Origin: Patescibacteria group bacterium
GTDB taxonomy: Bacteria; Patescibacteriota; Dojkabacteria; JAHIVN01
Reading direction: 5' to 3'
NCBI GenBank assembly: GCA_043816305.1
Contig: JBDRHZ010000012.1
Coordinates: 55,701-119,700, forward strand
Length of the DNA stretch: 64,000 bases
Within the stretch, counting starts at the first letter, position 1. Each line of letters starts with the position of its first letter. The notes under the pieces were generated by a model. It did no database searches, was not told where the DNA came from, and saw only the letters and a list, made by a program, of their open reading frames with translations. A program made the position numbers and the translations under genes. This document shows positions 10,282-26,524 of the stretch, one piece after another.

Positions 10282-13200
10282 TTATTCTTCGTCTAATATT
10301 TGATCTTTTTCTCTTCGTATTTCTCTAAGTACATGTTGATGAATATCAGTGAAAAATCTTTTCGCTGGAGATTCAGGGGCAATATTTGCAAGGACTTCGG
10401 CAGATTTATCACGCATTTCGATATCCTGAGGAAATGGTTCTCCTACCGTTCCTGATCTCCCACCTGAGATCAACGTGCTTCCTAAAGAGGATCTTACTGA
10501 GTTAAAACACTCTGACCCCTGAAAATAAGCACGTTCTAATATTTTTATGATAAATCCAATATTATTCCAAATAAAACTTGCTGGTGCTTCTGATATAAGT
10601 GAAGCTGCATATTTAATTTTGTCAGCTGAACCAGATTCTATCCATTCATTTAGAATTTTCATGACAGTGCCATTAAACTCGTTTGCTACCATAGAAAACA
10701 AATCCTTCCCGAAATGGATATGCTCCCATTTTTTTAGATCAGAGTAAACCCAGTCCCTTAGTTGTCTCAATATATCCTCATACTCTTTAGTTTCATGAAA
10801 TCTAAACTTTGTTTCTTTCTCATGCCTGAAAGGCAAAGGATCGTATTCTTTATTTGTTGATTTCTCAGTTTTATCAATACGTTTTTTCAAGAATTCAATA
10901 GTTTCAGTTGGATATTGAAAGGAGATCTCATTAAGATAATTTTCAATATAGTACCCATCAATAGAAGGGCAATCAAGAAGCATATTATTAATTTTTTCAA
11001 TATCCTTTACTGATAAGTCGTGTATTTTGAAAGCCCCATGTTGGTTAAACTCACTTAAAACCTCTTCTGCTATTTGAGATGATCCTTCAAACTTTATATT
11101 CAATGCCAATTGCAGTGCAATTAGTTTATCTACTTCAGCTAACCTGCTAAGTGAATGAACGCTAGATAATCGAACTGTTTTATCTGGAGAATTTAGTAAC
11201 TCAGTAAGCACTGATTTATTTTTTTCTTCAGCAATCTCGTTGCCAAACAGTCCCCAACTGAAAGAAGATGCTAGCTGTCTTTGTAGCGCTATGTTTCCTA
11301 ACTTGAGAGTTTTTCGTGCTATTTCTAAGGCTTTTTCTTTCTCAAACTTTTGTAGATAAGTAATTACTGTACTAAGGAAATTGCTGAGAACAGAGGTAGG
11401 GTTCTCCATAATAAAGTCCCCTAGCTCTCCGCCAAATTGTGGAGATAATCTAATAAGGCTACTCATGAAATGAGCCTGAATACCGTTCTGTTTGGAGATC
11501 GTAATAATTTGGGATACCCTTTCTTCAAGAAAAAGAATAAGATCAGAGTTCGAATATTTTTTTAGAGTTTTCTTAGCTGTAAGATCTATCCATTCACTCC
11601 ATCGTTCTTCTCTTTCCTTATAGGAGAGTTGCTCTTCCTCAAATGATCTGCCCCATCCATCCATTAAAGCTCTAACTATGTCTAATCCAAGGCTTTGAGG
11701 TATAGCATCTAGTACTTGTTGTGAGTGTTCCTTAGCCTTTGTTTTACCGTGCTTTGCCTGCCAAACTACAGCTTGTATTATTTCAACTAGTAAGATTGGA
11801 TCAAGGTTATTTTTTTCAACTATTTGTTTAAGTTTTATTAGAACTTCAATTATCCTTTTCTCCCATTCTTTAATTAGTTTTCCTCCTACTACAGCACCAA
11901 ACATGCCTCTTGGATAGCTTGTAGCTGCTGTAATTGTTTGAATTGCTCGACTGGCATAATGTAAATTATCTCCAATAAGGTAGTGAAATGCTAAATCAAT
12001 TGCTTTTTCCCTAAATAGATCTACCTGCGTAGGGGAAACAAAATATGGTCTCATTGTAAACTTGTTGTCATGAAACTCAGTAATATCAGTTTCCGTTGCT
12101 AAAACATGATCGATTACTTCAAATGCGGGAAGTCCGTATTCAGGATCTTTAGTCCATTCAATTGCCAGATTTAATATTCGCTCTGTGTATATCAGGGGTT
12201 TTCTTGGTTTTATTTCTATTAAGTCACTTAGTATCCTCATAGGATGCTCCGGATATTGATTTTGTCGCCTCTTATCAGTTTGGGCAAGTTTCCATAATAA
12301 ATTACATGCATCAATTAAATAATCAAGATTGTAAGCTATATCTTGTAATATTTCGGGAAGCTTATGTGTTACATAGTCGTAGGTAACATTATCTGACCAT
12401 CTAGGATCTAAACCAGACTTTCTTGTAGGATTATCTATAGCAAATCTTACTAGAGTAAGCATCCTTTCGGGTTGGAAATAGGCAATATCTTTAATCATTT
12501 CAAGTATCTCTTTTCTCTGCCAAATACCAGCATTTTTAAACTCATCCATAACTATCAACCACACTTCATCAAGAAGAGTAGTTCTCAATCCCTTCCCATT
12601 CTCATAGACCAGACGCCAGTCGAGTTGACTTAAATTCTTAAGTAAATTACTGGCTAATTTCCCTTTTGCAATTTTATACACCCTGTCAGCAAAACCTGTG
12701 GATTTTTGTTCATTTGAATTGAAGCAGGCTACTTCTCTAATATAATCAGCTAGAAGATCAGGGACTATTCTAAGCTGTTGGCCACGTCTTAAGAGGATAC
12801 CAGCATCTTCGAGTAATCTGATCTTACTATCAATAAGAACTTTGTCTTCTCTAAGTAATTCTTTCGTAATTTCAGAGAAACTTTCATCAGATTGTATTAC
12901 TGGTTGAATTAAAGTAATTAAATCCAAGAGTTTTTTAATCTGAGGTTTTTCAGTTGCATCACCTATTTCTGCTGTGACAACATCTTTAAACCTAGATAGC
13001 ATGAGTCGCCGAAATGACTTGGAATTATTTAATGTTGCAGGTAGAATAACCTCTTTACTGAGGACTTTGGCTGCAATTACTGTAATTAACGGACAATCTT
13101 TACTTAATTTAGCTATAGTTATAGCCAAGTCCTCAGGGCCATTATTTTCTCTCAGTACCTCCTTAGCAAGTATTTCTGCTTCTTTTTTAGTTAAACTTTC

Positions 13201-14394
13201 GATGTTTAGAATAAGCTCTTCACCTGTAGCAATTGCTGATGAAAATATACTTGCCTTTATTTTTTCTAAACCATATGGTCTCGTTGATAGCATAAGCTTA
13301 CATTTCAATCCTTGATGTACTATTCCATTTATAAGTACATTCAGATCATCTCTATCATGTGCATCATCTGCTATCAAAATAGTATTTTCTGGTATTCCTT
13401 CTAAATCTTTTGGTTCTATCTCAATACCTAATGACGCAAAAAATATGTGGGAAAAATTCGACTTTACTTCAGTATCGTTTGTAATTTCTCTTAAAATTTT
13501 AGTTTTTCCTATTCCTCCACGACCACTTATAATCGCAACTATTTGATCGCTTTTTAAATATTCTTTTAGTTTGCCTATTTCTTTGGTTCTTCCGACTAAA
13601 TTCCAGTCTTGGGTAAAAAATGAATCTACTCCAGGTAAACTATTAAAGTAATTTTCTGGTTTTACCCATGGTCCAGGTTTTGGTTCCCCAAGAAAGTCCA
13701 TACGTTGATTTGGAAAATACGCATCGATTATTCTTAATCTTTCTGGTCGAGGTAATCTTCTGATATCATCAGAAATGTCAACTAAATCTCGTAAATGCCA
13801 ACTCGATCCATGTTTTGTAATAGCTTCATCTTCCTTTGCGGTTGCTTCTTTCGTCAGAAGAATGAATTGATCAGTTATTTTAAAATTGGTTTTTTCTATT
13901 ATCTTTGAGAAATCGGCTTTCTGTACTGCATTGTCGATTTTTTGTGGTCCAAACTTGCTATTATATTCAACACGTTTACATTGGAAAGTTTTAATACTTT
14001 TGTCTGGAAATTTTGCATATATATCAATCCCATACTGTTTATCTCCATGTCTACCGAAAATACGAACATCGGTGGCTTCTGGGTATAAGGATTTGATTAG
14101 GTCTAAACAAAACTTTTCGAATTTTGCTGGTGGCAGGTTATAAAGTGGTAAAGTGTCTGTTAATAGCCTTTCGGGTGACGGTACTAATCGTCCTGATAGT
14201 TTATACAATTCATCTAATGAAACCTCTGGGAATAAAGCATGGAGTTTAGCTAAGTCCACTTCCTTTGGTCGAGAAGTTCCAGCTTCCCATCTACTTATAC
14301 TTTGTTGTTTAATTTCTAACTGTCTTGCTAGATCACTTTGTCTCCAACCTTTTTTCTCTCTTAATTCTTTTATTTTTTCTGATATTCTATACAT
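10282..14394 (-). CDS. Avs-like antiviral STAND NTPase: XRE-HTH, Mrr-type PD-(D/E)xK nuclease, P-loop NTPase and long helical-repeat C-terminal domain
   Basis: 1370 aa. Residues 1-65 are an XRE HTH (KKGWRQSDLARQLEIKQQSISRWEAG). Next comes an Mrr_cat-like region (FEKFCLDLIKSLYP...GDKQYGIDIYAKF...TFQCKRV). Walker A is VAIISGRGGIGKTKI and Walker B is ILIADDAHD. About 900 aa of helical repeats follow. Confidence 0.7.
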   Translation of the reverse strand: MYRISEKIKELREKKGWRQSDLARQLEIKQQSISRWEAGTSRPKEVDLAKLHALFPEVSLDELYKLSGRLVPSPERLLTDTLPLYNLPPAKFEKFCLDLIKSLYPEATDVRIFGRHGDKQYGIDIYAKFPDKSIKTFQCKRVEYNSKFGPQKIDNAVQKADFSKIIEKTNFKITDQFILLTKEATAKEDEAITKHGSSWHLRDLVDISDDIRRLPRPERLRIIDAYFPNQRMDFLGEPKPGPWVKPENYFNSLPGVDSFFTQDWNLVGRTKEIGKLKEYLKSDQIVAIISGRGGIGKTKILREITNDTEVKSNFSHIFFASLGIEIEPKDLEGIPENTILIADDAHDRDDLNVLINGIVHQGLKCKLMLSTRPYGLEKIKASIFSSAIATGEELILNIESLTKKEAEILAKEVLRENNGPEDLAITIAKLSKDCPLITVIAAKVLSKEVILPATLNNSKSFRRLMLSRFKDVVTAEIGDATEKPQIKKLLDLITLIQPVIQSDESFSEITKELLREDKVLIDSKIRLLEDAGILLRRGQQLRIVPDLLADYIREVACFNSNEQKSTGFADRVYKIAKGKLASNLLKNLSQLDWRLVYENGKGLRTTLLDEVWLIVMDEFKNAGIWQRKEILEMIKDIAYFQPERMLTLVRFAIDNPTRKSGLDPRWSDNVTYDYVTHKLPEILQDIAYNLDYLIDACNLLWKLAQTDKRRQNQYPEHPMRILSDLIEIKPRKPLIYTERILNLAIEWTKDPEYGLPAFEVIDHVLATETDITEFHDNKFTMRPYFVSPTQVDLFREKAIDLAFHYLIGDNLHYASRAIQTITAATSYPRGMFGAVVGGKLIKEWEKRIIEVLIKLKQIVEKNNLDPILLVEIIQAVVWQAKHGKTKAKEHSQQVLDAIPQSLGLDIVRALMDGWGRSFEEEQLSYKEREERWSEWIDLTAKKTLKKYSNSDLILFLEERVSQIITISKQNGIQAHFMSSLIRLSPQFGGELGDFIMENPTSVLSNFLSTVITYLQKFEKEKALEIARKTLKLGNIALQRQLASSFSWGLFGNEIAEEKNKSVLTELLNSPDKTVRLSSVHSLSRLAEVDKLIALQLALNIKFEGSSQIAEEVLSEFNQHGAFKIHDLSVKDIEKINNMLLDCPSIDGYYIENYLNEISFQYPTETIEFLKKRIDKTEKSTNKEYDPLPFRHEKETKFRFHETKEYEDILRQLRDWVYSDLKKWEHIHFGKDLFSMVANEFNGTVMKILNEWIESGSADKIKYAASLISEAPASFIWNNIGFIIKILERAYFQGSECFNSVRSSLGSTLISGGRSGTVGEPFPQDIEMRDKSAEVLANIAPESPAKRFFTDIHQHVLREIRREKDQILDEE

Positions 14395-14398
14395 ATCT

Positions 14399-14421
14399 CA
14401 CATTATACACATTTAATGTGT
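14399..14421. promoter_or_regulatory. CACATT-repeat palindrome (ACACATT-T-AATGTGT) plus an extended -10 just upstream of the Avs-like start
   Basis: Two direct CACATT copies and one inverted copy. On the coding strand TGTATAAT lies 7 nt upstream of the ATG, suggesting a leaderless transcript. Plausible operator for the N-terminal HTH. Confidence 0.45.
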
Positions 14422-14624
14422 GCGATGCAAGGAAGGAATGAAAAAGATGGTGATTTTCAGCAATAACTCAGTAATAATTCTGGAGGATTATTAGTTTCCC
14501 AAGATAACAGAGTACCTGTCGGATATTGTCTTATAAGTGAAGCTATTAAATTCTTAGCATTATTTCGTTTCCGAACATATTCACGTTGAAATGCAGGAAC
14601 AAATAATTGATAATTTAGAATTAA

Positions 14625-15440
14625 TTATTCCTTTCTAAGTATTAGGCAATAATGATGAATAATGTTACTTACCCAAGCATGAGGATATCCATATGGTGCT
14701 AACCCCACTTTGTCTTGAGCCCAAATTTTTTCATCTTTCAATACATAAAGTGTTCCTAACCTTTTAGCTAAATCCCAAGCCAATGGATATAATTTTCCCT
14801 CTTTCTTAACATTTTTGATAATTACCGTGATATAACCCTTTGGCTTCAAAATCTTGTAAATTTGCTCATATATTTTATACAGTTCATCGAGGAACTGTTC
14901 ATAATCATCAATATTTCCCAAATCTTTTTCATCTTTTGAATATTTTACATCTAGATCATCTTTTTCTCTTTTATTCTTAAAGTCTTTAGTACTCCTGTTT
15001 AATACATTCCAGTAAGGTGGTGATGATATACAGTAGTCAATTGTTGGTAAATCCAACTCATTAATATTCATTGAATTTCCCACTATTATTTTTTGGGTTG
15101 TTCTCTTTTTTGCTATTTCTGTATATTTGGGGTTAAGCTCGATTCCAATTCCTTTTCTGTTAGTTCTATCGCAAGCGACTAAAGTACTCCCAATACCTAC
15201 AAAAGGATCAAGAACAACTTGACCTTCTTTTGTAAAGAACTTTACAAAGCTTTCAATCATGGTTGAAGAATAAGTAGCTGGATGTTCTTTTGATTTACCA
15301 TTTGTCAGATCCCTCTCTTCTTTCAAGTCTTTCGGAAGGGCATTAAAAATAAAAAAACTACTCAAAAACTTTACCCATTCAGTTCCATTCAAATCGTTAA
15401 GAGTATTAACCATTTTTCTTTTTTTTGTAATTTTGTCCAT
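14625..15440 (-). CDS. DNA methyltransferase, N6-adenine/N4-cytosine type
   Basis: EHPATY...VLDPFVGIGST...GIELNP (HPxxxP + FxGxG module) followed by SSPPYW (motif IV). 271 aa. Confidence 0.7.
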   Translation of the reverse strand: MDKITKKRKMVNTLNDLNGTEWVKFLSSFFIFNALPKDLKEERDLTNGKSKEHPATYSSTMIESFVKFFTKEGQVVLDPFVGIGSTLVACDRTNRKGIGIELNPKYTEIAKKRTTQKIIVGNSMNINELDLPTIDYCISSPPYWNVLNRSTKDFKNKREKDDLDVKYSKDEKDLGNIDDYEQFLDELYKIYEQIYKILKPKGYITVIIKNVKKEGKLYPLAWDLAKRLGTLYVLKDEKIWAQDKVGLAPYGYPHAWVSNIIHHYCLILRKE

Positions 15441-15444
15441 ATAA

Positions 15445-16488
15445 TTATATTTTTATAGATATTGAATTATTTAATAAACCCTCTTCAATTATTTTTACTG
15501 CATAATCCCTTTTAGACCTTTCAACATTTAAATCAATATTTTTGTAAGTTGTTCGTAATTCTTTCTCAAATGAAGGGTTAAGACCAACCAATTCATCTAC
15601 AGTAATAATATTCCAACTTTTATCTGAGACTAGTATTTTCCACTCTTTATCATGATTCCGTGAATTATTTATCCTATTAAATTCTTCTCGTTCCAAGAAT
15701 GGAAATAAATAAAGAAACTTCTCCTTTTGTAAATCAATATTAGATTTTAATAGTAAATATTTTGATACCAAAGCCTCTCCAACAACTATATGTCCCATTC
15801 TAAAACTTGAATCTGTGAAATTCTTATACCTTGGCCCTCTTATTTTGACCCATCCATATTTTGTTTTTATTAAATCTCTTGATTCTAAATATAATTTCCA
15901 GTCTCCATTATAAGGGGGTGCAAGAAAAAAGCGGTTAAATGTTTTAAGCATTTTATTTTCTATCTGCTTGATAATCTCTTTTAGGTCAGTGGTATTTTCA
16001 TAACATTTGACAAGTTTCTTTATGTCAGATAATTCATCCGTTATCAGGTATCTAATGCAAGGATCTTGACTATGTTCCTCAGACGCGCTTAATGCAGCAG
16101 CCATTAAATCATGTCTAATTTCATGTTGGCCTTTTTTTAAATAGTAGATTGATAGAATATTATTAAGTAAGGCACCGTAGGCATGGTGAAACCTTTGTAG
16201 TTGAGCGTTACCCCAGGATCTGGTATTTAAACAATGTGACCCTTCTATTACAATTTTTGGAGAAGAATTAACAATTTGTTGAGTAAAAGGATCAAACCAT
16301 TCCTCATCAGCGAACCATGCAAAATCATTTGAACCATAAACAACTCCATTGATTCCAAAGCTGAGTCCACCTTCAGCCCAAATATCTTGATCATGATTGC
16401 TGCTACCAATATATACACGACGCTTGAGGGTATCAGTATTCCCTATACTTGAGAGCTCTCTTTTTATAATATCATCGGTTTTTGACAT
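15445..16488 (-). CDS. Hypothetical protein inside the R-M operon (candidate restriction-endonuclease subunit)
   Basis: 347-aa ORF, translationally coupled to both neighbours. No assignable motif. Confidence 0.35.
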   Translation of the reverse strand: MSKTDDIIKRELSSIGNTDTLKRRVYIGSSNHDQDIWAEGGLSFGINGVVYGSNDFAWFADEEWFDPFTQQIVNSSPKIVIEGSHCLNTRSWGNAQLQRFHHAYGALLNNILSIYYLKKGQHEIRHDLMAAALSASEEHSQDPCIRYLITDELSDIKKLVKCYENTTDLKEIIKQIENKMLKTFNRFFLAPPYNGDWKLYLESRDLIKTKYGWVKIRGPRYKNFTDSSFRMGHIVVGEALVSKYLLLKSNIDLQKEKFLYLFPFLEREEFNRINNSRNHDKEWKILVSDKSWNIITVDELVGLNPSFEKELRTTYKNIDLNVERSKRDYAVKIIEEGLLNNSISIKI

Positions 16489-17584
16489 AGTGTAAAATGT
16501 AATTAATTAATCCATCGTAATTAATATCTTTTAAATAATTTATTAAACCGATGCTATCTAATGGGAATTTCAATTCTTTTGACATTTTTTCTAAACTATC
16601 TGTTGATAAATTTGCTAAAAGATAAAATTTAATATAAGTATCTAACCATTTATTATATCTTGATTCCTTAGCATAATCTGTTATTTGAGTCGAATTCTTA
16701 TCGATAATCGTCATATCACCTTCTGCATTAAATGTGATTAGTCCTGAATATGAACTTGCGTCCTTTTTGAAAGGAATCACTTCGAAAGCTTTATGAAAGA
16801 TCTGTTTCGATATATATTTTTCAATCTGAGGTGCTGAGGATTGTAGTGTTTTAACTTCAAATACAGCATTTTTCCAATCTTGAAATGATTTTGTATTATT
16901 TTTGACTTTATCTAAACCGAACGTTGTTATTGTCATTAATTCGATTAATGAATATCCTCTAAAACCTACCCCATACTTTGTTAAAGCATTAGATAATTCA
17001 TCAACTCTATATATTGATGCATCTGGGGTACCGACTCCATAATAGAAGGGTATCTGTGTATCTGTAAAAAACCCGAATTTTGAAAAATAACTAGAGATAA
17101 TAAATTCAAAGAACGATTCGAATTCGGATACCTTTGTTAATCCCTTCCTAATTGGAATTATTATGTAGTCATTAGGATTATAATTATTTTGGATCAACTC
17201 CTTGCTTATTTCTTTTAACCTCTCAAGGAACAAGCTATATTTTTCATATTCAATCGGTAATAAGTATTTATAACCCTTAAGGATATATGGTTTTTCGAGT
17301 ACATTTATTCTTGGTGTACATGAAAACGACAGATCAGAAATTGACATCAACCCTTCTTGAATATTGTATTCCTCTGCTTGATTAAATATTCTATAATAAT
17401 CCCTTTTAAGAAAAAAACGACACTCAGGTTCAGAAATATCTAAGTATCCATGAGCAGATAAAACGGCATATAAAAATGCTTCCCTCGGACTCAATTCAAT
17501 AGTATCTCCGACACAAGGGTTTTTTACTCGTTTTAAACCAAGAGATTTCGTTAATGTATTTAAAACAAAAGATTTATTTATCAT
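16472..17584 (-). CDS. Hypothetical protein inside the R-M operon (candidate restriction-endonuclease subunit)
   Basis: 370-aa ORF. Possible PD...(D/E)xK-like elements (GVGTPD ... FEVK), but the spacing is atypical. Confidence 0.35.
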   Translation of the reverse strand: MINKSFVLNTLTKSLGLKRVKNPCVGDTIELSPREAFLYAVLSAHGYLDISEPECRFFLKRDYYRIFNQAEEYNIQEGLMSISDLSFSCTPRINVLEKPYILKGYKYLLPIEYEKYSLFLERLKEISKELIQNNYNPNDYIIIPIRKGLTKVSEFESFFEFIISSYFSKFGFFTDTQIPFYYGVGTPDASIYRVDELSNALTKYGVGFRGYSLIELMTITTFGLDKVKNNTKSFQDWKNAVFEVKTLQSSAPQIEKYISKQIFHKAFEVIPFKKDASSYSGLITFNAEGDMTIIDKNSTQITDYAKESRYNKWLDTYIKFYLLANLSTDSLEKMSKELKFPLDSIGLINYLKDINYDGLINYILHYVKNR

Positions 17585-19178
17585 TTAAATTCATTATTCG
17601 GTCAATTAAATATATGCTTATATTCTTTAAACTCTCATAATCATCTGTTTTGAAAACGTAATCTATAGCTTTTTCCAAAACTTCATCATAAATATTTGTG
17701 ATATTTAATGTACTTCCATGAGCTTTGTATTTATCAATTATTCCATCGATTTCTGATAAATTGAATCCTAAGGATAATTGGCTATTATTCATTTTGATAC
17801 TTTTTTTAAACAACATGTATAGGTCAGTTTTCGGTGATCTTTTTGACCAATTTTTATTAAAAGAATTTCCTAGTGGATCGTGAATATTTAAACCACAAAA
17901 TGAAAAACCAGCACCCTTAATCGCTCTTATTATTGCACTCCATACTTTAAAATCCTTATTGTGAAATGTTACCATCAAAAATTTCTCATTTTTTAATACT
18001 CGAAACGTTTCAGAAAAAACTTGAGATAATAAATCTTCATAATTTTTAATATTTTTTTTCTTCGATCTGTTAATGATTATTTCATCATCATGTTTATACT
18101 CATTCTTAAACCAAAAATTCCAAACCATACTCAATTCGTCGTATTGGATACTATCTCCGTATGGTGGGTCGGTAAAAATGAAGTCTATTGAATCGTTTTT
18201 AATAATATTAGAAACATCTGTTGATGATTGATTAAATATCTCACAACTGTAGTCAGAATTTTTTATTCTTTCATTGGCAATTTTTTTCCCTTCTAATAGG
18301 TTTTCTACTCTCTGTGCAAACCTAAACCAAACGTTCTCCTCAATCCAGTCATCAGGAACCCAATAATTGTTTACTGAAAGAGGACGGACATTTGCACCTT
18401 TTAGTTTACTTGCATGAAGTAAAGTATCAGAGAAAGATAGCAGAAGAAGTTCTTTAACATTATTATCTTTAATATCTTGTATAACACTTAACAGTGTAGA
18501 TAATGCATGAAGATTTCTGTTCGTAAACAACTTATCAACTGAGGTTATACCTTTATATGTAATTCTATCTTTATCAAATTTTTCAGGAAACTTATTTTGG
18601 GGATACCAATTTGCAATCTTGCTTTTTTCAAGTTTGTGTAAGTTCTGTAAATCTTTCTCAGACAATAAAAGCTTTTTCATTGTTTTTCTCTTTCCACAAT
18701 TTGGACAATATGCTTTTGCAGAAATGGATTTAAACTTTGGGCCTCTTTCGAAATATTCGCCTAAATAATTTGATCCACAGAATTCACATTTTTTAGATAA
18801 TATATAGAGCTTATTTAGTTTGTTTTTTAATTTCACAGATATTTTCTCAAACTCAATTTCGATCTCTTCTGTAATATTATGGTTCAAAATAGTCATACGA
18901 CTTACAAATGTAGACACTGGGTTTAAATCAATTAGAATAGAATTTCTATCTAGAACAAGAGATTCAACACCGGTAACACCACTTCCAGAAAATGGATCAA
19001 AAACGACATCTCCTTTATTTGTAAATTCTTTTATATATGAATTTACATAATACCAAGGTTTTCTTGCCCAATATTTATGTATTTTATACATTTTTATAAT
19101 TTTATCTTGCTTAGGAACAACAATGCTGTCCCTAATTTTGTTTAGTCTTTCTTTAGTATCAACCATATTTTTCATCAA
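17574..19178 (-). CDS. DNA methyltransferase, N6-adenine/N4-cytosine type, with a Cys4 zinc ribbon
   Basis: HKYWARKP...VVFDPFSGSGVTG (motif I) near the N-terminus and FIFTDPPYGD (motif IV) about 270 aa later. CEFCGS...CPNCGKR zinc ribbon. 534 aa. Confidence 0.75.
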   Translation of the reverse strand: MMKNMVDTKERLNKIRDSIVVPKQDKIIKMYKIHKYWARKPWYYVNSYIKEFTNKGDVVFDPFSGSGVTGVESLVLDRNSILIDLNPVSTFVSRMTILNHNITEEIEIEFEKISVKLKNKLNKLYILSKKCEFCGSNYLGEYFERGPKFKSISAKAYCPNCGKRKTMKKLLLSEKDLQNLHKLEKSKIANWYPQNKFPEKFDKDRITYKGITSVDKLFTNRNLHALSTLLSVIQDIKDNNVKELLLLSFSDTLLHASKLKGANVRPLSVNNYWVPDDWIEENVWFRFAQRVENLLEGKKIANERIKNSDYSCEIFNQSSTDVSNIIKNDSIDFIFTDPPYGDSIQYDELSMVWNFWFKNEYKHDDEIIINRSKKKNIKNYEDLLSQVFSETFRVLKNEKFLMVTFHNKDFKVWSAIIRAIKGAGFSFCGLNIHDPLGNSFNKNWSKRSPKTDLYMLFKKSIKMNNSQLSLGFNLSEIDGIIDKYKAHGSTLNITNIYDEVLEKAIDYVFKTDDYESLKNISIYLIDRIMNLNDK

Positions 19179-19374
19179 TTAATTCGTCTAAAGAGATGTT
19201 TAAAGCCTTAGCAATTTTATAAATGGTTTTTATTGTAGGATTTTTCACTTGCCCATTTTCAATCTTCATAAGTGTAGCATAAGGAATATTTGCTTTTCGA
19301 GCTAACTCTTCTTGAGTTAAATCCTTATCATTTCGTAGCTTTTTTATCTTTTCTCCAAGAGATATTTGATTCAT
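19159..19374 (-). CDS. XRE-family HTH controller (C-protein-like) at the head of the R-M operon
   Basis: 71 aa, DLTQEELARKANIPYATLMKIENGQ. Overlaps the start of the large MTase. Confidence 0.7.
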   Translation of the reverse strand: MNQISLGEKIKKLRNDKDLTQEELARKANIPYATLMKIENGQVKNPTIKTIYKIAKALNISLDELIDEKYG

Positions 19375-19502
19375 TTAGTTATTCTTATACAAGTAATATT
19401 CGGTTGGTAATATCATACCGCATAACTCTATAAAAGGAAACCAAAAGCCTTATTCTTTATCAAACTTTCTTATGGCGTATGAATAAAGAAAGTTTGTTAA
19501 AA

Positions 19503-19530
19503 AGGCGGAAGCTTTTGACCTCCGCCTTAA
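19503..19530. terminator. Hairpin terminator downstream of the DUF2958 gene
   Basis: AAGGCGGA-loop-TCCGCCTT, followed on the minus strand by a T-run. Confidence 0.45.
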
Positions 19531-20425: not shown

Positions 20426-20974
20426 TTATTTCTTAATTTCTACCTTATCGAGTAAAACAAAATATCGTAGTCTCGATAACATGAATTTACAGGTATAAAG
20501 AATTGTTTTATTGTTAAAATCGGGATTATTTTTATCCTCTGTTATTTCATCAATTTGAAATTTATATTTTTCTCCATTCCAAATAATATAAACATTATCT
20601 CCTTTATTTAGCTTATCAACATGATAAAGTGTCTGCTTCATTTTTTGATCAGGCGACAATGTTGACCAGCCGAAACGATGGATTGCAATCAAATCAGGAT
20701 TATTGCTTTCATCTAGTCTTTGAATCCACCCTCCATTATCAAGATATTTCCGATCAGTACCTATCTCCATATCAACTCCGATAGAAGGGATAATCAGCCT
20801 GTTTTGCGATAAATCCTCTTGTTCCTCAATTGCCCTGATGATTTTCGCTGTATCAGGTTTATCTAATCTGTATTCAATCTCAGGCGAAAATACATGATAC
20901 AGGACATATAAACCTGCAAGAATAGAAATTAATCCTATGATAAGGCTAATTTGTTTAATAATTGTTTTGACCAT
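20426..20974 (-). CDS. Sortase-family transpeptidase
   Basis: N-terminal TM helix, then LIAIHRFGW (catalytic His) and TILYTCKF (TLxTC Cys motif). 182 aa. Confidence 0.65.
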   Translation of the reverse strand: MVKTIIKQISLIIGLISILAGLYVLYHVFSPEIEYRLDKPDTAKIIRAIEEQEDLSQNRLIIPSIGVDMEIGTDRKYLDNGGWIQRLDESNNPDLIAIHRFGWSTLSPDQKMKQTLYHVDKLNKGDNVYIIWNGEKYKFQIDEITEDKNNPDFNNKTILYTCKFMLSRLRYFVLLDKVEIKK

Positions 20975-21834
20975 TTCTCGTTTATATGAGCAAAAATAAT
21001 CTCAATTCGTAAAAACTCTCTAATTTTGTCGGATGAAATACTCTTTAAGTTATCGGATATGCCTATTCCTTTTAGAATAACGTGCTTAGATTTAGCAAGG
21101 TGGGGTCTATCCTTGAGTGCTTTATTCAGTTCTACTTCATCTTTTTCCAAAAGATTATTGATTTGTTCATCCGATCTATTCGTAAGAAAGAGTATTGATG
21201 GGAAAACCGTGAACCTTTTTGACCAGTCGCCATAAACAAAGTATTCAAAATACCTCATGAACTTCCTTGTAAGCTGTTCCTTGTCCATATTTCCGGTGTC
21301 ATATTCAAGGAAATACCCTAAAACAGCTTCATCTTTCTGCATTTTGAAATACGAATCCGGTGAAAAGTTGCGTTTGATTGTCTTACCTGTTCTTGTTGAT
21401 TTAAATGAATAGTGATACAAGGCTTTTTGATCCCCATGCCATTCAAGAAGATTAAATTCCGGGTAACTAGCCAATTCACACAAAAACTGCTCATACAGCT
21501 CAGCTATCTTTACGGTATGTTCCAGCATTGCAAACTGCACCTTCACGCCATTGTTTGGAATACCAAATTCTTTCGGATTTACACCTCTTGCACTCGCTAA
21601 AATGTCTACACCAAGCTTTGTCAAATAAATGACCTTCCAGTTATTGCCATAATAAAAACATTTAATAAAACCCCTCTGCTCAAGTCTATTAACAATCCTG
21701 CTAATATTCTGTCTGAACGCATACAATTTCTCTTTTTTCGCAATCTTAACTAAAACCTTTAAAGGTAAATACCTAAATGAATTCACTATATCCAGTATCT
21801 CTATTTGATTGTAAGTTATTCTTATATTCTTCAT
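20935..21834 (-). CDS. Replication-relaxation (Replic_Relax) family protein
   Basis: 299 aa. N-terminal wHTH-like region (ILDIVNSFRYLPLKVLVKIA...), typical of the family. Confidence 0.5.
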   Translation of the reverse strand: MKNIRITYNQIEILDIVNSFRYLPLKVLVKIAKKEKLYAFRQNISRIVNRLEQRGFIKCFYYGNNWKVIYLTKLGVDILASARGVNPKEFGIPNNGVKVQFAMLEHTVKIAELYEQFLCELASYPEFNLLEWHGDQKALYHYSFKSTRTGKTIKRNFSPDSYFKMQKDEAVLGYFLEYDTGNMDKEQLTRKFMRYFEYFVYGDWSKRFTVFPSILFLTNRSDEQINNLLEKDEVELNKALKDRPHLAKSKHVILKGIGISDNLKSISSDKIREFLRIEIIFAHINEKWSKQLLNKLALS

Positions 21835-21933: not shown

Positions 21934-21970
21934 GTGATTGGGTGGAGTCCGAAGGAGTCCACCCAATCAC
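21934..21970. promoter_or_regulatory. Inverted repeat GTGATTGGGTG...CACCCAATCAC (candidate oriT or terminator)
   Basis: 11-bp arms flank GAGTCC-GAAG-GAGTCC, overlapping the last codons of the coupling-protein gene. Confidence 0.4.
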
Positions 21971-24681
21971 TCATCACCGAGACTGAATAAGGCGGAAGGA
22001 ACAGCATTTTCGTAACTTTTATCTAACTTAACTATATTGGTGCCACTGACTGCGCGAGTGCATCCAGTCTGAACCCTCTTAGAGTTATTCAATTTACAAC
22101 CTTCATTGATCCAATCCCTTCTAATTTTTATCTCGTTTTCAATCTGCTGTTTAGTTTTCCCGTATTTTTCATAGGATTCCGAAATAAACTCGTCAATAAC
22201 ATCTTCTGTAAAATTGGGTTCTCGTTCTTTCGGTACGTATATCGAAAACACATCTTCACCTGCTTTTACGTTTGCATGAAATTCGGAAACTTCCATTACT
22301 TCCTGTTCTAATACTTTTCCCTGTAAGTCTTTTGATACCATCATAGAATCCTCTAAACCGCACCTGTAATAAATCTTGTTTTTGACATTACCCATAACAG
22401 AGTGGAAAACATCATCAGGCAACTGCTGGAAGAATTGATGAGCAAGTATCAATTCAAGCTTAAACTTCCGAGCTTCTGATAGAGCTTGGGAAAAGTCAGA
22501 GCTTGCAAAATTCTGAAATTCATCTGCATATACTACGAATGGCTTTCTCTCTTTTTGAGCGAACCTTTTAGCCTCAAACCATACCTTTGACATAAGCATT
22601 GAGCCGAGTAAGCTCATGCCTTCTTCTCCTATGTTTTTAGATGATAAATTAACCAGCAGAACTTTCGAGTTTTTTATAACATCACCAAAATCAACCGAGC
22701 TTTGAGATTGTCCGAATGTGTACAAAAGTATCCCTGTAAGTATCTGTGAAAGTTTATTATCAAAGCCCTGCCGTATCTCCTGCCAGTTTTTCGATTCTGA
22801 ATAGTTAGGAAGAGTGTCCTCCCAAAATGATCTTAATCCTTCATATCTTTCAAATTCGATAAATTCTTTGACTTTTTCTGCAAATTCTTCATCAAATATA
22901 AGGTTTCGCACTTCTATCAGTGTAGGTGCGTGATTCTTTATAAAATTTACCGCCTTATCAGTACTTCCATTTTTCTTTATCCATTCATTCTGAAACACCA
23001 TAAGCGTTTTCATTGCGTTTATAAGCATTGGTTTGCCTGTTGTTCCCATTCCTGCATCAGGATTTGTCCTTTTCATTATCTTTTCTATTAACTTAAAATT
23101 TGAGTCAATAATCAGATCAATTTCACGCTCAGTCATACCAACTGCATAAAGCGGATTAAACCCAAAGTAAAACTTTTCACTTCTTGTATCCCATGCAATG
23201 ATTTTCTTTGACTGCTGAAAGTTATTATGTAACCTTTGTAGAATTTCCATGAAAAAGTCCTCGTGAGGATCCATTAGGATTAACCCTCGCTTATCTCCTT
23301 TTACAAGATTGTTATCAATGTCCTGTAATATGAAGTTTTTAAGGATTGTTGATTTCCCTGTACCCGTCTGACCCGTTATTACAATATGCCTTTTTCTGTT
23401 TTCGGAAGGAAGATAAACACGGTACTGCTTCTCGTGAGTGTTATTTATTCCAAGTATTAAATCTTCTTTCTCCTGCTTCGACCGATATTGCTTCTTTGCC
23501 GGTATATCAGGCGCTATGAAATGATCAATTGAAGGATCAAATATGTTTTGAGGCAGGTGATAGAGCATTGATATCTCCCTTGATGACAATGTGCCTTGTG
23601 AAGTAAAAATCTCTTTAAAAAAAGGAAACAATTTGTCTTCTGGGTAAATAAACCTTGTTTTTACATCCGTATAACTTTTTCCATTTTTTCTAATAAGTCT
23701 GTTCTGAGTTTCACTTTTCATAGATTCAAGTGCCTGTTCAATCGCATCCAGTTTGTTTCTGATGTCTTTTCCTTCTGCAATAACTCTAATACATGTTGAA
23801 AACGAGGTTTTGTATTTTTCATCCATCAAGCTGTTAAATGTTTGCAGTTCTTCTTTATCAATAAAGATTTTTCTAGGGTCTTGATCTGGCAGTATCATTA
23901 CAGGATCAAGTGAATTCTGTTTATTTGAAAACATTTTGCTAACTTCGGAGAGTAGTTTCATTGTAAGTAAAGGCAAAAGAGGCAATAGGTACAAAAAGTA
24001 CACCTCAAAGTGAGATAAAAATACAGTCAACCATGTAACCTCTTTTTTCACTAGTCTGAAATTCTCCTTTGCCATTCTCAAAGCTTCTTTATCAAGCTTT
24101 ACTGGACTTAGTACTACCTGAAAAAGCACCTTATCTTCCATTTCCATCCCTGACAGCGCTGTTAATAAATCTTGAATTGGATCCATGCCCTCAAAATCCT
24201 TTACATCCATAAGCGTGTAAACATCGTGCTTTAGAGCTTTATATTCATTTATTTCGGCTTTTTCCTTCTTGAAACTTTGTATCGGGTCATCTTCAAGTGT
24301 TTTAATCTGAATTCGCTCTTTGTAGGTACTATAGAGGTTGAGCTTGACTAAATCCTGTATAGATTTTGTTGGAGTCCATACAAGGAATTTAATCCCTGAA
24401 TAATCAGCATGTATTTCAAACGAAATTCTGCTTTTTTTAACAGAAGCAGTCAGATTATCAATAAAACGTTGAAGCGAAAATCTTTCTCCCTGCTTCGTTT
24501 TTGAATCAATTAATGAATATTTAGGCGGAATTATCTGCATGACAAAACCAGTCTCTTTTCGAGCTTTATACTTTATGATAATCAGGATGATGAAATATCT
24601 AACTGCCATAAAAAGACTTACTCCAAGCGAAGCAATTATCAGTATAATTATTCTTTTGTCCTGTAATAAGGCTTGAATCAT
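21967..24681 (-). CDS. Type IV secretion coupling protein (VirD4/TraD-like ATPase)
   Basis: 904 aa. N-terminal TM helices, Walker A IVITGQTGTGKST, Walker B-like VVYADEFQNF. Confidence 0.7.
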   Translation of the reverse strand: MIQALLQDKRIIILIIASLGVSLFMAVRYFIILIIIKYKARKETGFVMQIIPPKYSLIDSKTKQGERFSLQRFIDNLTASVKKSRISFEIHADYSGIKFLVWTPTKSIQDLVKLNLYSTYKERIQIKTLEDDPIQSFKKEKAEINEYKALKHDVYTLMDVKDFEGMDPIQDLLTALSGMEMEDKVLFQVVLSPVKLDKEALRMAKENFRLVKKEVTWLTVFLSHFEVYFLYLLPLLPLLTMKLLSEVSKMFSNKQNSLDPVMILPDQDPRKIFIDKEELQTFNSLMDEKYKTSFSTCIRVIAEGKDIRNKLDAIEQALESMKSETQNRLIRKNGKSYTDVKTRFIYPEDKLFPFFKEIFTSQGTLSSREISMLYHLPQNIFDPSIDHFIAPDIPAKKQYRSKQEKEDLILGINNTHEKQYRVYLPSENRKRHIVITGQTGTGKSTILKNFILQDIDNNLVKGDKRGLILMDPHEDFFMEILQRLHNNFQQSKKIIAWDTRSEKFYFGFNPLYAVGMTEREIDLIIDSNFKLIEKIMKRTNPDAGMGTTGKPMLINAMKTLMVFQNEWIKKNGSTDKAVNFIKNHAPTLIEVRNLIFDEEFAEKVKEFIEFERYEGLRSFWEDTLPNYSESKNWQEIRQGFDNKLSQILTGILLYTFGQSQSSVDFGDVIKNSKVLLVNLSSKNIGEEGMSLLGSMLMSKVWFEAKRFAQKERKPFVVYADEFQNFASSDFSQALSEARKFKLELILAHQFFQQLPDDVFHSVMGNVKNKIYYRCGLEDSMMVSKDLQGKVLEQEVMEVSEFHANVKAGEDVFSIYVPKEREPNFTEDVIDEFISESYEKYGKTKQQIENEIKIRRDWINEGCKLNNSKRVQTGCTRAVSGTNIVKLDKSYENAVPSALFSLGDE

Positions 24682-25481
24682 AATTGTGACTTTGTAATAA
24701 AAGATTCTTTGAATTTGTTAATCATGTTTTGATACTTCTCCTGTTTCCGCCTTTCATCGTTCTTCTGCATGAGCTTTTTAAGAATAGATACAAACCAACC
24801 TGCCGGATTTTTCAGGAAGGTCGTTCCATCAACTTGATCTGTACGGATCATTCGTCTTGTATCGTTAAGTGCAGATTGAATATCATCCTGTTTTATCTCA
24901 CCTTTGTTCTTTCGATTTATAAGATTCTGGTAGTACTTGATACTTTTTTCATCACTAAGTTCTTTCGCTAAAGCTACAGCCTCGCTGTCAAAAGAGTTCA
25001 GATTAATTTTTCCGTTGGCGTTGCTTAACGTTAACGGCTTCTTATATTCTTTCTTTTTATATTCATCTTCTTCTACTTTATGCACAGTCCCTTGTGCATC
25101 TGGTTGCATACTCTTTTGTGCTTCTGGATGCACACATCCTTGTGCATCAGAAGATTTAGTTAAAGCTTTACTAAGCGGTAAAATGTAATAAATATTAGTT
25201 TTTTTAAGACCTCTTCTGCACCAACTTATAAGACCGGATTCCTTCAACTCTTTTAGAAACTTCTGAACAGTATTTCTATGAACTCCCAAGTCCTTTGCAA
25301 GCCTATCCTGACCCGGAAAACATTTCTCTTTCTGCCATGCGTAATCTAAAAGCAAAGCGTATACGACCTTTGCCTGCATAGATAAATTGGATGTCCTCAA
25401 TACGCTTCTAGGTATCTGACAGAAGCCATGCTTCAGCGTTTTATCAAGAATTTCAATTGTGTCTTTGATCTCTTCACTCAT
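24678..25481 (-). CDS. HTH DNA-binding protein (replication-initiator/regulator-like)
   Basis: 267 aa. wHTH (RLAKDLGVHRNTVQKFLKELKESGLI). Internal 3 x 24-nt tandem repeat. Translationally coupled to the coupling-protein gene. Confidence 0.5.
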   Translation of the reverse strand: MSEEIKDTIEILDKTLKHGFCQIPRSVLRTSNLSMQAKVVYALLLDYAWQKEKCFPGQDRLAKDLGVHRNTVQKFLKELKESGLISWCRRGLKKTNIYYILPLSKALTKSSDAQGCVHPEAQKSMQPDAQGTVHKVEEDEYKKKEYKKPLTLSNANGKINLNSFDSEAVALAKELSDEKSIKYYQNLINRKNKGEIKQDDIQSALNDTRRMIRTDQVDGTTFLKNPAGWFVSILKKLMQKNDERRKQEKYQNMINKFKESFITKSQL

Positions 25482-26524
25482 TAGTTTGGAAATAAAAATG
25501 GGGTAGGATCAATATTGTTCCATCCTCCTGAACTATTCTTTTCATACACTCCCACATGAGTATGAACTCCTGTAGAAAAGCCTGTACTGCCCATAAGACA
25601 GATTGGATCTCCATACTTAACAGTTGACTGGTCTTGGGCTATAAAAGCACTACAATGACAGTACAAGACTTTGTAGTAATCATTTGTGATGTATGAGCAT
25701 AAAGCTCCGTTTCCATCTTTGAAATTTGAAACTTTTCCTGCAACAATTGTTCTATTTATTGCATCAGTTGAACCTTTACCCGGATTCTCCTGATACCATA
25801 TATAAGAAGGGACAAGATCAACTCCTTTATGAACATTCTTAACTCCATTTATTACTCGAACTACGTTATATCCTGAAGTAACCGTAACTAGATCAGATCG
25901 ATTCAAACCGACAGGGTTACCGTATGGGATTAAAAGCATACCGACATACATCTGGTACTGCTCGTAGACTTCATCTTTTTTAGGGTATGAGTAAGCGTAA
26001 ATCTTTGTCTTAGCATCTCCACTTGTCTGCGAAAGGATATTTGAGAGTGTGAAATAGTTATCACAAAGATCACCTTCGGTGATGTTTCCGTTGTTATCTC
26101 CGTCAGTTTTATACGTATCCCAATCACTTTGAGATATTTCAAGAAAGCCGATTCCTGAGCCTCTATGAGTACCGTCAAAATTTGCAACCACTTTGCCATA
26201 TGAAGCAATTAGCTCATACTCCTGATTGAATTTCCTACTTGATTTATCAATACATTCCTTGTGTTCAGTTGGAATTTCATCAAGAAGCCCTCTATAGCCT
26301 GCTAATACTTGATAAGCGATAGCTTCTAGTGCGAATATGCCAAAAAAGAAAACAACCACACAAGCGATAAGTATCTTGAACTTGTTTTTCCAGATAATGT
26401 TTACGAGGATTGGTCCAACAACAGGTGCAACTTTGTTTGAAGCCAAGCCTATTACGTCTCCGACAAGACTGTCCCCAATTTCTACTACATTTTTTGTTGT
26501 ATTTAACACTTTGTTTTCTTCCAC
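25481..26524 (-). CDS. Membrane-anchored M23 (LytM) peptidase
   Basis: 347 aa. N-terminal TM helix. HKGVDLV (HxxxD) and GVHTHVGV (HxH). Confidence 0.7.
   Translation of the reverse strand: MEENKVLNTTKNVVEIGDSLVGDVIGLASNKVAPVVGPILVNIIWKNKFKILIACVVVFFFGIFALEAIAYQVLAGYRGLLDEIPTEHKECIDKSSRKFNQEYELIASYGKVVANFDGTHRGSGIGFLEISQSDWDTYKTDGDNNGNITEGDLCDNYFTLSNILSQTSGDAKTKIYAYSYPKKDEVYEQYQMYVGMLLIPYGNPVGLNRSDLVTVTSGYNVVRVINGVKNVHKGVDLVPSYIWYQENPGKGSTDAINRTIVAGKVSNFKDGNGALCSYITNDYYKVLYCHCSAFIAQDQSTVKYGDPICLMGSTGFSTGVHTHVGVYEKNSSGGWNNIDPTPFLFPN

What the first reader, a model, noticed from the sequence alone, without database searches (positions are those of the whole stretch)
14625..19374. Five-gene R-M operon: C-protein, two N6A/N4C MTases and two unassignable proteins, a likely heterodimeric asymmetric-site Type II system
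All five genes are co-directional with overlapping stops and starts. Both MTases show an HPxxxP-FxGxG module followed by (S/D)PPY. The 347-aa and 370-aa ORFs between them carry no confidently assignable motif. The layout resembles BbvCI/Bpu10I-type systems, which have two MTases plus R1/R2 subunits, but the middle genes could equally encode a different effector.
Basis: partly seen in the sequence, partly recalled or inferred. Interest (0 to 1): 0.55.

Follow-up and report, generated by a model that had tools for sequence, protein, structure and literature searches.

The report
Split two-subunit restriction enzyme operon
This five-gene operon, carried on a mobile element in a Patescibacteria genome, most likely encodes a restriction-modification system whose DNA-cutting enzyme is built from two unrelated proteins, each cutting one DNA strand; both belong to unannotated families, so it is a new example of a known kind of system, not a new kind.

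Summary
The five minus-strand ORFs exist exactly as reported. Three of the four junctions overlap; the fourth has a 4-nt gap. The flanking genes are N6_N4 DNA methyltransferases, M1 with DPPY and M2 with SPPY. The first gene is a small Xre-type HTH protein.

The two "unassignable" proteins can now be assigned.
- **X (370 aa):** invariant E156/E160, P187-D188 and E243-x-K245 lie on an alpha-beta-beta-beta-alpha-beta core, a canonical PD-(D/E)xK site. Its model matches a phage MmcB-like nuclease fold.
- **Y (347 aa):** conserved D5, D55, E82 and Q96/Q98-R99. Its high-confidence model matches only BsmI among solved structures (Foldseek E 1.8e-5, probability 1.00). BsmI's bottom-strand site is D9/D91/E109 plus QR.

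X is immediately followed by Y in 13 of 13 loci from bacteria and archaea. Two methyltransferases accompany the pair wherever the contig is long enough, although gene order is shuffled.

Best reading: a Type IIT heterodimeric restriction enzyme with two strand-specific methyltransferases. Functionally it resembles BsrDI/BtsI, a split form of BsmI, more than BbvCI/Bpu10I. Neither subunit shows sequence-level homology to a characterised enzyme. The recognition site, the heterodimer and cleavage are all untested.

The parts
19159..19374 (-). Small Xre-family HTH protein (71 aa), a candidate controller (C) protein and first gene of the operon
   Evidence: Pfam HTH_3 1.8e-18. PADLOC Control_protein 9.1e-12. 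The closest solved proteins are SinR at 1.9e-8 and the R-M controller C.Esp1396I (3clc) at 4.2e-5. It is not conserved in related systems: two loci have HTH_17 instead and others have nothing.
17574..19166 (-). M1, a 530-aa N6_N4-family DNA methyltransferase. Motif I (FSGSG, residue 59) precedes a roughly 270-aa insert with a Cys4 zinc ribbon (CEFC 127, CPNC 154), then motif IV (DPPY, residue 333). It is probably an N6-adenine enzyme.
   Evidence: Pfam N6_N4_Mtase 1.8e-20 in two stretches. PADLOC MTase_II PDLC03319 9e-46 over the full length. Motif positions. Full-length orthologues at 41-43% identity sit next to X-Y in L005, L008 and L010. The ATG at 19166 overlaps the C-gene stop by 8 nt; the ORF tool lists an upstream TTG at 19178.
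16472..17584 (-). X, a 370-aa nuclease subunit with a canonical PD-(D/E)xK site (E156/E160 on a helix, P187-D188, E243-V-K245). It is proposed to be the top-strand (Ct-like) cutter and carries extra N- and C-terminal domains.
   Evidence: These residues are invariant across 44-45 family members. The AF2 model has pLDDT 94.2, and its secondary-structure order H156-168, E173-176, E189-192, E239-244, H253-259, E265-269 fits the PD-(D/E)xK core. Foldseek against BFVD finds an MmcB-like DNA repair protein at E 8.4e-4, probability 1.00, TMt 0.62. There are no Pfam, NCBIfam, PADLOC or PDB sequence matches.
15445..16488 (-). Y, a 347-aa nuclease subunit with a BsmI-like fold and a non-canonical D...E...QR site (D5, D55, E82, Q96/Q98-R99). 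It is proposed to be the bottom-strand (Cb-like) cutter with a recognition domain.
   Evidence: The AF2 model has pLDDT 94.6. Foldseek against the PDB returns only four significant hits, all BsmI (9f38, 9ezd, 9ez7, 9ez5; E 1.8e-5 to 1e-4, probability 1.00, TMq 0.41-0.47). BsmI's bottom-strand site is D9/D91/E109 and the class motif is PD-Xn-E-X12-QR. There are no sequence-level family matches.
14625..15440 (-). M2, a 271-aa N6_N4-family DNA methyltransferase with motif I (FVGIG, residue 80) and motif IV (SPPY, residue 140). It may be an N4-cytosine or an N6-adenine enzyme.
   Evidence: Pfam N6_N4_Mtase 1.7e-26. PADLOC MTase_II 6e-35. Orthologues at 50-61% identity lie next to X-Y in all eight related loci screened by tblastn (L001, L003, L005, L007, L008, L010, L011, plus duplicates). 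The closest solved proteins are 2zie at 1.7e-23 and N4-cytosine MTases and DpnA at about 1e-9.
19413..19501 (.). Upstream control region with inverted repeats, which are candidate operator sites (C-boxes)
   Evidence: A 16-nt inverted repeat, TTTATCAAACTTTCTT / AAGAAAGTTTGTTAAA (94% complementary, 14-nt spacer), lies at 19456-19501. A 13-nt pair, TCATACCGCATAA / TTATGGCGTATGA, lies at 19413-19425 and 19470-19482. Both sit between the hairpin 19502-19528 that follows the upstream gene and the C-gene ATG. Their function is untested.

Best explanation
The operon encodes a Type II restriction-modification system of the Type IIT kind, in which two different catalytic sites act at an asymmetric site. 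X and Y are proposed to assemble into a heterodimeric endonuclease. [quoted passage not shown] X carries a canonical PD188...E243-x-K245 site and would cut the other strand. M1 (DPPY) and M2 (SPPY) would each methylate one strand of the asymmetric site to protect host DNA. The leading HTH protein would delay or tune expression, as controller proteins do. What is shown: the gene set, the conserved motifs, the predicted folds and the conserved gene neighbourhood. What is inferred: heterodimer formation, which subunit cuts which strand, the base specificity of each methyltransferase, the asymmetry of the recognition site, and regulation by the HTH protein.
For: (1) X is followed immediately by Y on the same strand in 13 of 13 distinct loci, from Patescibacteria, Bacilli, Acholeplasmataceae, Clostridia, Humimicrobiaceae, a Thermoplasmata archaeon and several unclassified metagenomic contigs. 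Two N6_N4 methyltransferases are present wherever the contig extends far enough (11 of 13). Four gene orders occur: M-X-Y-M, M-M-X-Y, X-Y-M-M, and X-Y with divergent M genes. (2) X keeps E156, E160, P187, D188 and K245 invariant, and E243 in at least 90% of members, on an alpha-beta-beta-beta-alpha-beta core. Its model matches a PD-(D/E)xK-type phage protein. (3) The only significant PDB fold matches for Y are four BsmI structures. Its conserved D5/D55/E82/Q-x-QR99 parallel BsmI D9/D91/E109/QR and BsrDI B D83/E99/Q112R113. (4) X and Y show no detectable similarity to each other, so the two sites differ. (5) The review PMC4081073 states that Type IIT enzymes are generally accompanied by two separate methyltransferases, and BsrDI and BtsI have exactly this gene content. 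(6) An exhaustive profile search with Y found no fused form of about 700 aa, so the split state is the norm for this family.
Against: Neither X nor Y shows sequence-level homology to any characterised restriction enzyme. X has no significant match among solved structures; the best restriction enzyme is PaqCI at E 0.5. The Y-BsmI match has a modest TM-score (0.41-0.47) and high rmsd, so it is domain-level only. The residue-to-residue mapping was inferred from order and spacing and was not read from a structural alignment. The motif spacings differ from the class (D-X26-E-X13/15-QR against D-X13-17-E-X12-QR). The subunit sizes are inverted relative to BsrDI/BtsI: the PD-ExK subunit is the larger one here. 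No heterodimer model, methylome or cleavage data exist. Word avoidance in the window gave no hint of a recognition site.
Confidence: 0.8

Rival explanations
1. Only one of the two proteins is the nuclease, and it acts as a homodimer or a monomer. The other is a non-catalytic specificity, loading or regulatory subunit, or X and Y are two independent enzymes each paired with one methyltransferase.
For: X has no significant match to any solved restriction enzyme. The catalytic assignment of Y rests on a domain-level fold match and a non-canonical motif with unusual spacing. L017 carries two tandem X-Y pairs, which shows the module can be duplicated as a unit but says nothing about stoichiometry.
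Against: Both proteins keep complete sets of acidic and basic active-site-like residues invariant or nearly so across distant members. X and Y are never found apart in the 13 loci examined and usually overlap translationally. Two methyltransferases imply an asymmetric site, which a homodimer would not suit.
Confidence: 0.12
2. X and Y are effectors of a different methylation-linked defence system, such as a BREX/Pgl-like or MADS-like system or a modification-dependent nuclease, and not a classical Type II restriction enzyme.
For: M1 scores 4.4e-60 against the PADLOC PglX/PglXI profile and 6.5e-14 against the NCBIfam DUF1156 anti-phage methyltransferase model. M2 scores 1.9e-13 against mad2 and the HTH protein 0.0011 against mad1. 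The operon sits beside other defence genes: a STAND NTPase and a GmrSD remnant.
Against: The PglX match covers only the methyltransferase core (profile positions 337-619 of 919), and M1 fits a plain Type II MTase profile over its full length. No PglZ, BrxC, BrxL or further mad genes are present in the operon or in any of the related loci. The conserved module is just two methyltransferases plus X and Y. X and Y match no PADLOC model.
Confidence: 0.05

Closest known systems
BsrDI and BtsI (heterodimeric Type IIS/IIT enzymes of the BsmI class; Xu et al. 2007, PMC1950550)
   Same: Both have two separate nuclease subunits, one with the non-canonical D...E...QR site and one with a canonical PD...ExK site. 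Both have two separate amino-methyltransferases; in BsrDI these are one N6A and one N4C, paralleled here by DPPY and SPPY. Gene order is variable. Y (347 aa) is close in size to the BtsI B subunit (987-bp ORF, 37.6 kDa).
   Different: No sequence similarity is detectable. The PD-ExK subunit X is 370 aa, against 18.6-25 kDa for the A subunits, and has extra N- and C-terminal domains, so it may also contact DNA. The motif spacings differ. Nicking by Y alone is unproven.
BsmI / Mva1269I (monomeric two-site Type IIS enzymes; Sieskind et al. 2025, PMC11889245; PDB 9f38)
   Same: BsmI is the only significant solved-structure match of Y. BsmI joins an N-terminal EcoRI-like D9/D91/E109(QR) domain, a central domain and a C-terminal FokI-like E470/D528/E546-x-K domain. 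X plus Y together (717 aa) carry the same two kinds of site as BsmI (676 aa).
   Different: BsmI is a single chain; here the two halves are separate genes and the PD-ExK half is encoded first. X shows no significant fold or profile match to BsmI or FokI. No fused relative was found in 1.84 billion representative proteins.
BbvCI / Bpu10I
   Same: The layout is the same: two R genes plus two M genes, an asymmetric site, and one strand cut per subunit.
   Different: X and Y are not detectably related to each other (hhalign probability 0.2%), whereas, to my knowledge, the two BbvCI/Bpu10I subunits are homologous to each other. BbvCI is not a significant structural match for Y (6eg7_B E 2.4, probability 0.06).

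Membership tests
Type IIT restriction-modification system (two different catalytic sites, asymmetric site; PMC4081073) | Two different nuclease subunits or domains, each with its own catalytic site | tested here: met
   X has an invariant E156/E160, P187-D188, E243-x-K245. Y has conserved D5, D55, E82, Q96/Q98-R99. The two proteins are unrelated to each other. This is motif and fold evidence only, not enzymology.
Type IIT restriction-modification system (two different catalytic sites, asymmetric site; PMC4081073) | Accompanied by two separate methyltransferases, one per strand | tested here: met
   Two N6_N4 methyltransferases flank X-Y here. They accompany X-Y in 11 of 13 loci; the other two loci are cut by contig ends. 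Strand assignment was not tested.
Type IIT restriction-modification system (two different catalytic sites, asymmetric site; PMC4081073) | Recognises an asymmetric sequence and cleaves within or next to it | not testable with these tools
   This needs a methylome or a cleavage assay. Word-avoidance analysis of the 64-kb window was uninformative.
Type IIT restriction-modification system (two different catalytic sites, asymmetric site; PMC4081073) | The subunits form a physical heterodimer | not testable with these tools
   No multimer prediction was available. The only support is indirect: strict adjacency in 13 of 13 loci and translational overlap of 17 nt here.
BsmI / BsrI / BsrDI / BtsI class | Non-canonical bottom-strand site PD-X13-17-E-X12-QR | tested here: inconclusive
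   Y has D55-X26-E82-X13-Q96-x-Q98-R99, with the same residues in the same order. An N-terminal helix Asp (D5) parallels BsmI D9. The spacings fall outside the published range.
BsmI / BsrI / BsrDI / BtsI class | Canonical top-strand site PD-Xn-ExK | tested here: met
   X has P187-D188-X54-E243-V-K245 preceded by helix E156/E160, as BsmI has E470, D528 and E546.
BsmI / BsrI / BsrDI / BtsI class | Fold similarity to a solved member | tested here: inconclusive
BsmI / BsrI / BsrDI / BtsI class | Detectable amino-acid sequence similarity among members | tested here: not met
   Profiles of X and Y, both narrow and wide, find no PDB chain including BsmI. The exhaustive Y profile search finds only proteins of about 330-400 aa from its own family.
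BbvCI / Bpu10I type | Two mutually homologous subunits (this criterion rests on my knowledge of the family; it is not stated in the papers read) | tested here: not met
   hhalign of the X family against the Y family gives probability 0.2% and E 0.38. BbvCI is not a significant fold hit for Y.
R-M controller (C) protein | A small Xre-type HTH protein at the head of the operon that resembles known C proteins | tested here: met
   HTH_3 1.8e-18. PADLOC Control_protein 9.1e-12. C.Esp1396I 4.2e-5, although SinR scores better at 1.9e-8.
R-M controller (C) protein | An operator (C-box) upstream of its own gene, and conservation with the system | tested here: inconclusive
   Inverted repeats exist upstream but were not compared with any known C-box. 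Related systems carry HTH_17, HTH_3 or no regulator.
BREX / Pgl (considered because of the M1 PglX hit) | Presence of PglZ, BrxC or BrxL partner genes | tested here: not met
   None is present in the operon or in any related locus. The PglX hit covers only the methyltransferase core.

The most novel reading that the evidence does not exclude
X-Y defines a previously unrecognised and fairly widespread family of split two-site restriction enzymes: at least 297 X clusters, in both bacteria and archaea. In this family the BsmI-type architecture is divided differently from BsrDI/BtsI. The subunits are nearly equal in size, and the PD-ExK subunit carries its own extra, possibly DNA-reading, domains. 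If both subunits contribute to recognition, the family could supply natural top- and bottom-strand nickases with new, possibly longer, asymmetric specificities. It would also show that the unusual D...E...QR nuclease predates the BsmI fusion, a question the BsmI structure paper leaves open.
Probability: 0.45. Interest if true: 0.55.

Novelty: new member of a known kind. Interest (0 to 1): 0.4.

Why it matters
Heterodimeric and two-site Type II enzymes are the source of nearly all commercial strand-specific nicking enzymes, and few natural heterodimers are known: BbvCI, Bpu10I, BsrDI, BtsI and BspD6I. Here two protein families annotated everywhere as 'hypothetical', with no Pfam, NCBIfam or PADLOC model, can be assigned as the two halves of such an enzyme. 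That gives annotation pipelines two new nuclease families to recognise. It offers a set of candidate nickases with unknown specificity. It also provides a free-standing relative of the unusual D...E...QR domain of BsmI, which bears on whether that site predates the gene fusion. As biology it is an ordinary defence system on a conjugative element; it is not a new mechanism.

Tried and rejected
- **Family and PDB sequence searches.** Pfam, NCBIfam, PADLOC and PDB sequence searches with single X and Y sequences found nothing. Scanning every family member against Pfam gave no consistent family. Narrow and wide family profiles against PDB sequences found nothing, BsmI included.
- **X against Y.** hhalign found no relationship, which argues against a BbvCI-like paralogous pair.
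- **X against FokI.** I recalled the FokI cleavage-domain sequence and verified it as 100% identical to 1FOK residues 381-576. hhalign of the X profile against it gave probability 0.4%. The visual resemblance (ExxxEFF...PD) is therefore only motif-level.
- **X against solved structures.** Foldseek against the PDB gave nothing significant; PaqCI scored E 0.5.
- **Search for a fused form.** The exhaustive Y profile search was meant to find a fused BsmI-like bridge protein. None exists among 1.84 billion representatives.
- **Recognition site.** 5-mer and 6-mer under-representation in the window gave only weak palindrome signals (|z| below 3.8) and nothing asymmetric. The window is too short, and the system sits on a mobile element.
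- **Window repeats.** Self-BLAST of the window found no large DNA repeats that could mark the ends of the element.
- **BREX, Pgl and MADS.** These readings were rejected for lack of partner genes.
Full report
**Observation.** The window carries five consecutive minus-strand ORFs at exactly the reported coordinates.

| Gene | Coordinates | Length |
|---|---|---|
| HTH protein | 19374..19159 | 71 aa |
| M1 | 19166..17574 (ATG; the ORF tool also lists an upstream TTG at 19178) | 530 aa |
| X | 17584..16472 | 370 aa |
| Y | 16488..15445 | 347 aa |
| M2 | 15440..14625 | 271 aa |

The C/M1, M1/X and X/Y junctions overlap by 8, 11 and 17 nt. Y and M2 are separated by 4 nt. A GC-rich hairpin followed by a T-run (19502-19528) lies just downstream of the upstream DUF2958 gene, so the operon probably starts with the HTH gene. 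The region is the AT-richest part of the window, at 29-33% GC.

**The easy genes.** Both flanking proteins match Pfam N6_N4_Mtase (1.8e-20 and 1.7e-26) and PADLOC Type II methyltransferase profiles.
- M1 has motif I (FSGSG, residue 59) far upstream of motif IV (DPPY, residue 333). The roughly 270-residue insert between them contains a Cys4 zinc ribbon.
- M2 has FVGIG (residue 80) and SPPY (residue 140). Its closest solved relatives include both N4-cytosine and N6-adenine enzymes, so the target base cannot be called. DPPY versus SPPY is compatible with one m6A and one m4C enzyme, as in BsrDI.
- The HTH protein is an Xre-type regulator (HTH_3 1.8e-18). It matches PADLOC 'control protein' profiles (9.1e-12) and C.Esp1396I (4.2e-5), but it matches SinR better.
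- Inverted repeats lie upstream of it. Their role is untested.

**The two middle genes.** Neither X nor Y matches any Pfam, NCBIfam, PADLOC or PDB sequence, alone or as a family. Both have homologues in metagenomes, all annotated as hypothetical. The exact proteins come from a 140,951-bp contig of a Patescibacteria MAG.

A profile search enlarges the X family to at least 297 clusters. An exhaustive profile search of 1.84 billion representatives finds 107 Y relatives. Apart from one 1850-aa repetitive protein (P0139), they are about 330-400 aa long or fragments, and none is a fusion of about 700 aa.

**X.** The family alignments show conserved active-site-like residues. X keeps E156, E160, P187, D188 and K245 invariant, and E243 in at least 90% of members. 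The AlphaFold model has pLDDT 94.2. It places E156/E160 on a helix, D188 at the start of a strand and E243-V-K245 in the next core strand, followed by a helix and a strand. This is the alpha-beta-beta-beta-alpha-beta core of PD-(D/E)xK nucleases.

Foldseek finds nothing significant among solved structures; PaqCI scores E 0.5. Against phage models it finds an MmcB-like DNA repair protein at E 8.4e-4, probability 1.00, TMt 0.62. By my knowledge that family belongs to the PD-(D/E)xK superfamily.

**Y.** Y keeps E82 invariant, and D5, D33, S53, D55, Q96, R99, H102, R230, H233 and K281 in at least 90% of members. Its model has pLDDT 94.6. It has exactly four significant matches among solved structures, all of them BsmI (E 1.8e-5 to 1e-4, probability 1.00, TMq 0.41-0.47).

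**What BsmI is.** BsmI is a monomeric Type IIS enzyme with two different active sites.
- Its N-terminal EcoRI-like domain cuts the bottom strand. It uses D9, D91 and E109 and the unusual PD-Xn-E-Xm-QR motif.
- Its C-terminal FokI-like domain cuts the top strand. It uses E470 and D528 for metal binding and the E546 motif glutamate.

BsrDI and BtsI are the split versions.
- A B subunit carries the QR site (BsrDI D83/E99/Q112R113; BtsI D58/E72/Q85R86) plus the recognition domain.
- A small A subunit carries PD...ExK.
- Both systems have two methyltransferases.

Y's D5 / D55 / E82 / Q-x-QR99 reproduce the bottom-strand site in residue type and order, though with longer spacers. X's E160 / PD188 / E243-x-K245 reproduce the top-strand site. 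This mapping is inferred from order and from the fold match; I could not obtain a residue-level superposition. The abstract of Xu et al. assigns the canonical site to the large subunit, whereas their Results and the BsmI structure assign the non-canonical site to it. I follow the Results and the structure.

**Gene neighbourhood.** I examined 13 distinct loci: the window plus L001, L003, L005, L007, L008, L010, L011, L012, L013, L014, L015 and L016. The named sources are Patescibacteria, Bacilli, Acholeplasmataceae, Clostridia, Humimicrobiaceae and a Thermoplasmata archaeon; several loci are unclassified metagenomic contigs.
- X is always followed directly by Y on the same strand.
- Two N6_N4 methyltransferases are present in 11 loci. 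The other two are cut by contig ends.
- Four gene orders occur: M-X-Y-M, M-M-X-Y, X-Y-M-M, and X-Y with the two methyltransferase genes on opposite strands.
- M2 orthologues are 50-61% identical in the eight related loci screened by tblastn. M1 orthologues are 41-43% identical in three of them, and a different, shorter methyltransferase replaces M1 in two.
- The small HTH gene is not conserved: it is HTH_3 in two loci, HTH_17 in two, and absent elsewhere.
- One contig (L017) carries two tandem X-Y pairs.

A nuclease-like pair that moves as a unit with two methyltransferases while everything else changes is the signature of an R-M system with an asymmetric site. The review PMC4081073 defines Type IIT enzymes this way.

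**Interpretation.** The most likely function is a Type IIT heterodimeric restriction enzyme (X plus Y) with two strand-specific protecting methyltransferases and an optional controller. I put this at about 0.8.

The BbvCI/Bpu10I analogy holds only for the layout. Profile comparison finds no similarity between X and Y, and BbvCI is not a fold match. The functional analogue is BsrDI/BtsI.

I do not file the system as a member of the BsmI class, for four reasons.
- Sequence similarity was tested and not found.
- The X fold link to the class is missing.
- The motif spacings differ.
- The size relation of the subunits is inverted: the PD-ExK subunit is the larger one and has extra domains at residues 1 to about 150 and 300-370.

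Alternatives are listed with the rivals: only one catalytic subunit, or a different methylation-linked defence system. They are disfavoured by the conservation of both residue sets and by the absence of partner genes.

**Context.** The operon lies in a low-GC island of roughly 10-38 kb. The island also holds the following.
- A 1370-aa HTH / nuclease-like / STAND NTPase protein.
- A remnant of a GmrSD gene.
- A conjugation gene set: Replic_Relax, a coupling-type ATPase, a VirB4/TraG-type ATPase and an M23 peptidase.
- Just beyond its high-coordinate edge, a CI-like repressor and a large serine recombinase at 37957-40204.

A related X-Y module in a Humimicrobiaceae MAG sits next to the same kinds of conjugation genes. 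The system is therefore cargo of a conjugative element.

Noticed in passing
window 10282-14394 (-): A 1370-aa protein lies directly downstream of the operon. It has an N-terminal HTH_3 (8.9e-13), a nuclease-like segment (PADLOC LmuA 2.3e-7; Mrr_cat_2 at 0.059), a STAND/NB-ARC NTPase (1.5e-8) and HEAT repeats. It looks like an Avs-type or other STAND defence protein with its own promoter region.
   Followed up: partly
window 14395-14624 (-): The spacer between M2 and the STAND gene holds a short in-frame remnant...VPAFQREYVRKRNNAKNLIASLIRQYPTGTLLSWE..., ending at a stop codon. It matches Pfam GmrSD_N (DUF262) at 5.2e-8, above the gathering score. This is a decayed fragment of a modification-dependent nuclease gene.
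   Followed up: yes
window about 10000-40204: A low-GC island (29-37% GC against 39-43% in the flanks) spans roughly 10-38 kb and carries conjugation genes: Replic_Relax at 20935-21834, a coupling-type ATPase at 21967-24681, an M23 peptidase at 25481-26524 and a VirB4/TraG P-loop ATPase at 27362-29209. At its high-coordinate edge are a CI-like HTH-S24 repressor at 37957-38628 and a large serine recombinase at 38612-40204. Paralogous pairs of ABC-2 permease genes lie on both sides, at 3919-5503 and 41302-42892. This is probably an integrated conjugative element. Its ends were not mapped, and self-BLAST found no long repeats.
   Followed up: partly
window 32479-36633 (-): A 1384-aa protein with five DUF11 repeats plus DUF7619 and SdrD_B domains is encoded within the island. 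It is probably a surface adhesin of the mobile element.
   Followed up: no
window 17574-19166 (-), M1 residues about 127-157: M1 carries a CxxC...CxxC zinc-ribbon-like motif (CEFC at 127, CPNC at 154) inside the long insert between methyltransferase motifs I and IV. Its motif order (I before IV) is permuted relative to the Pfam N6_N4_Mtase model.
   Followed up: no
L017 998-5713: One metagenomic contig carries two tandem X-Y pairs (369+402 aa and 373+400 aa). The X copies are 55% identical and the Y copies 43%. The pairs are followed by a convergent SPPY methyltransferase fragment. This suggests duplication and divergence of the whole nuclease pair.
   Followed up: partly
L013 4332-14913: In a Humimicrobiaceae MAG, a related M-M-X-Y module sits next to ParA/ParB, a T4SS pilin, TrbL, a TraC/VirB4-type ATPase and an M23 peptidase. 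This is the same kind of conjugative context as in the window.
   Followed up: no
P0139: A 1850-aa protein matches the helical middle of the Y profile (positions 138-214) in 18 stretches, at E 9e-21. It is probably a repetitive or coiled-coil artefact and not a relative.
   Followed up: no
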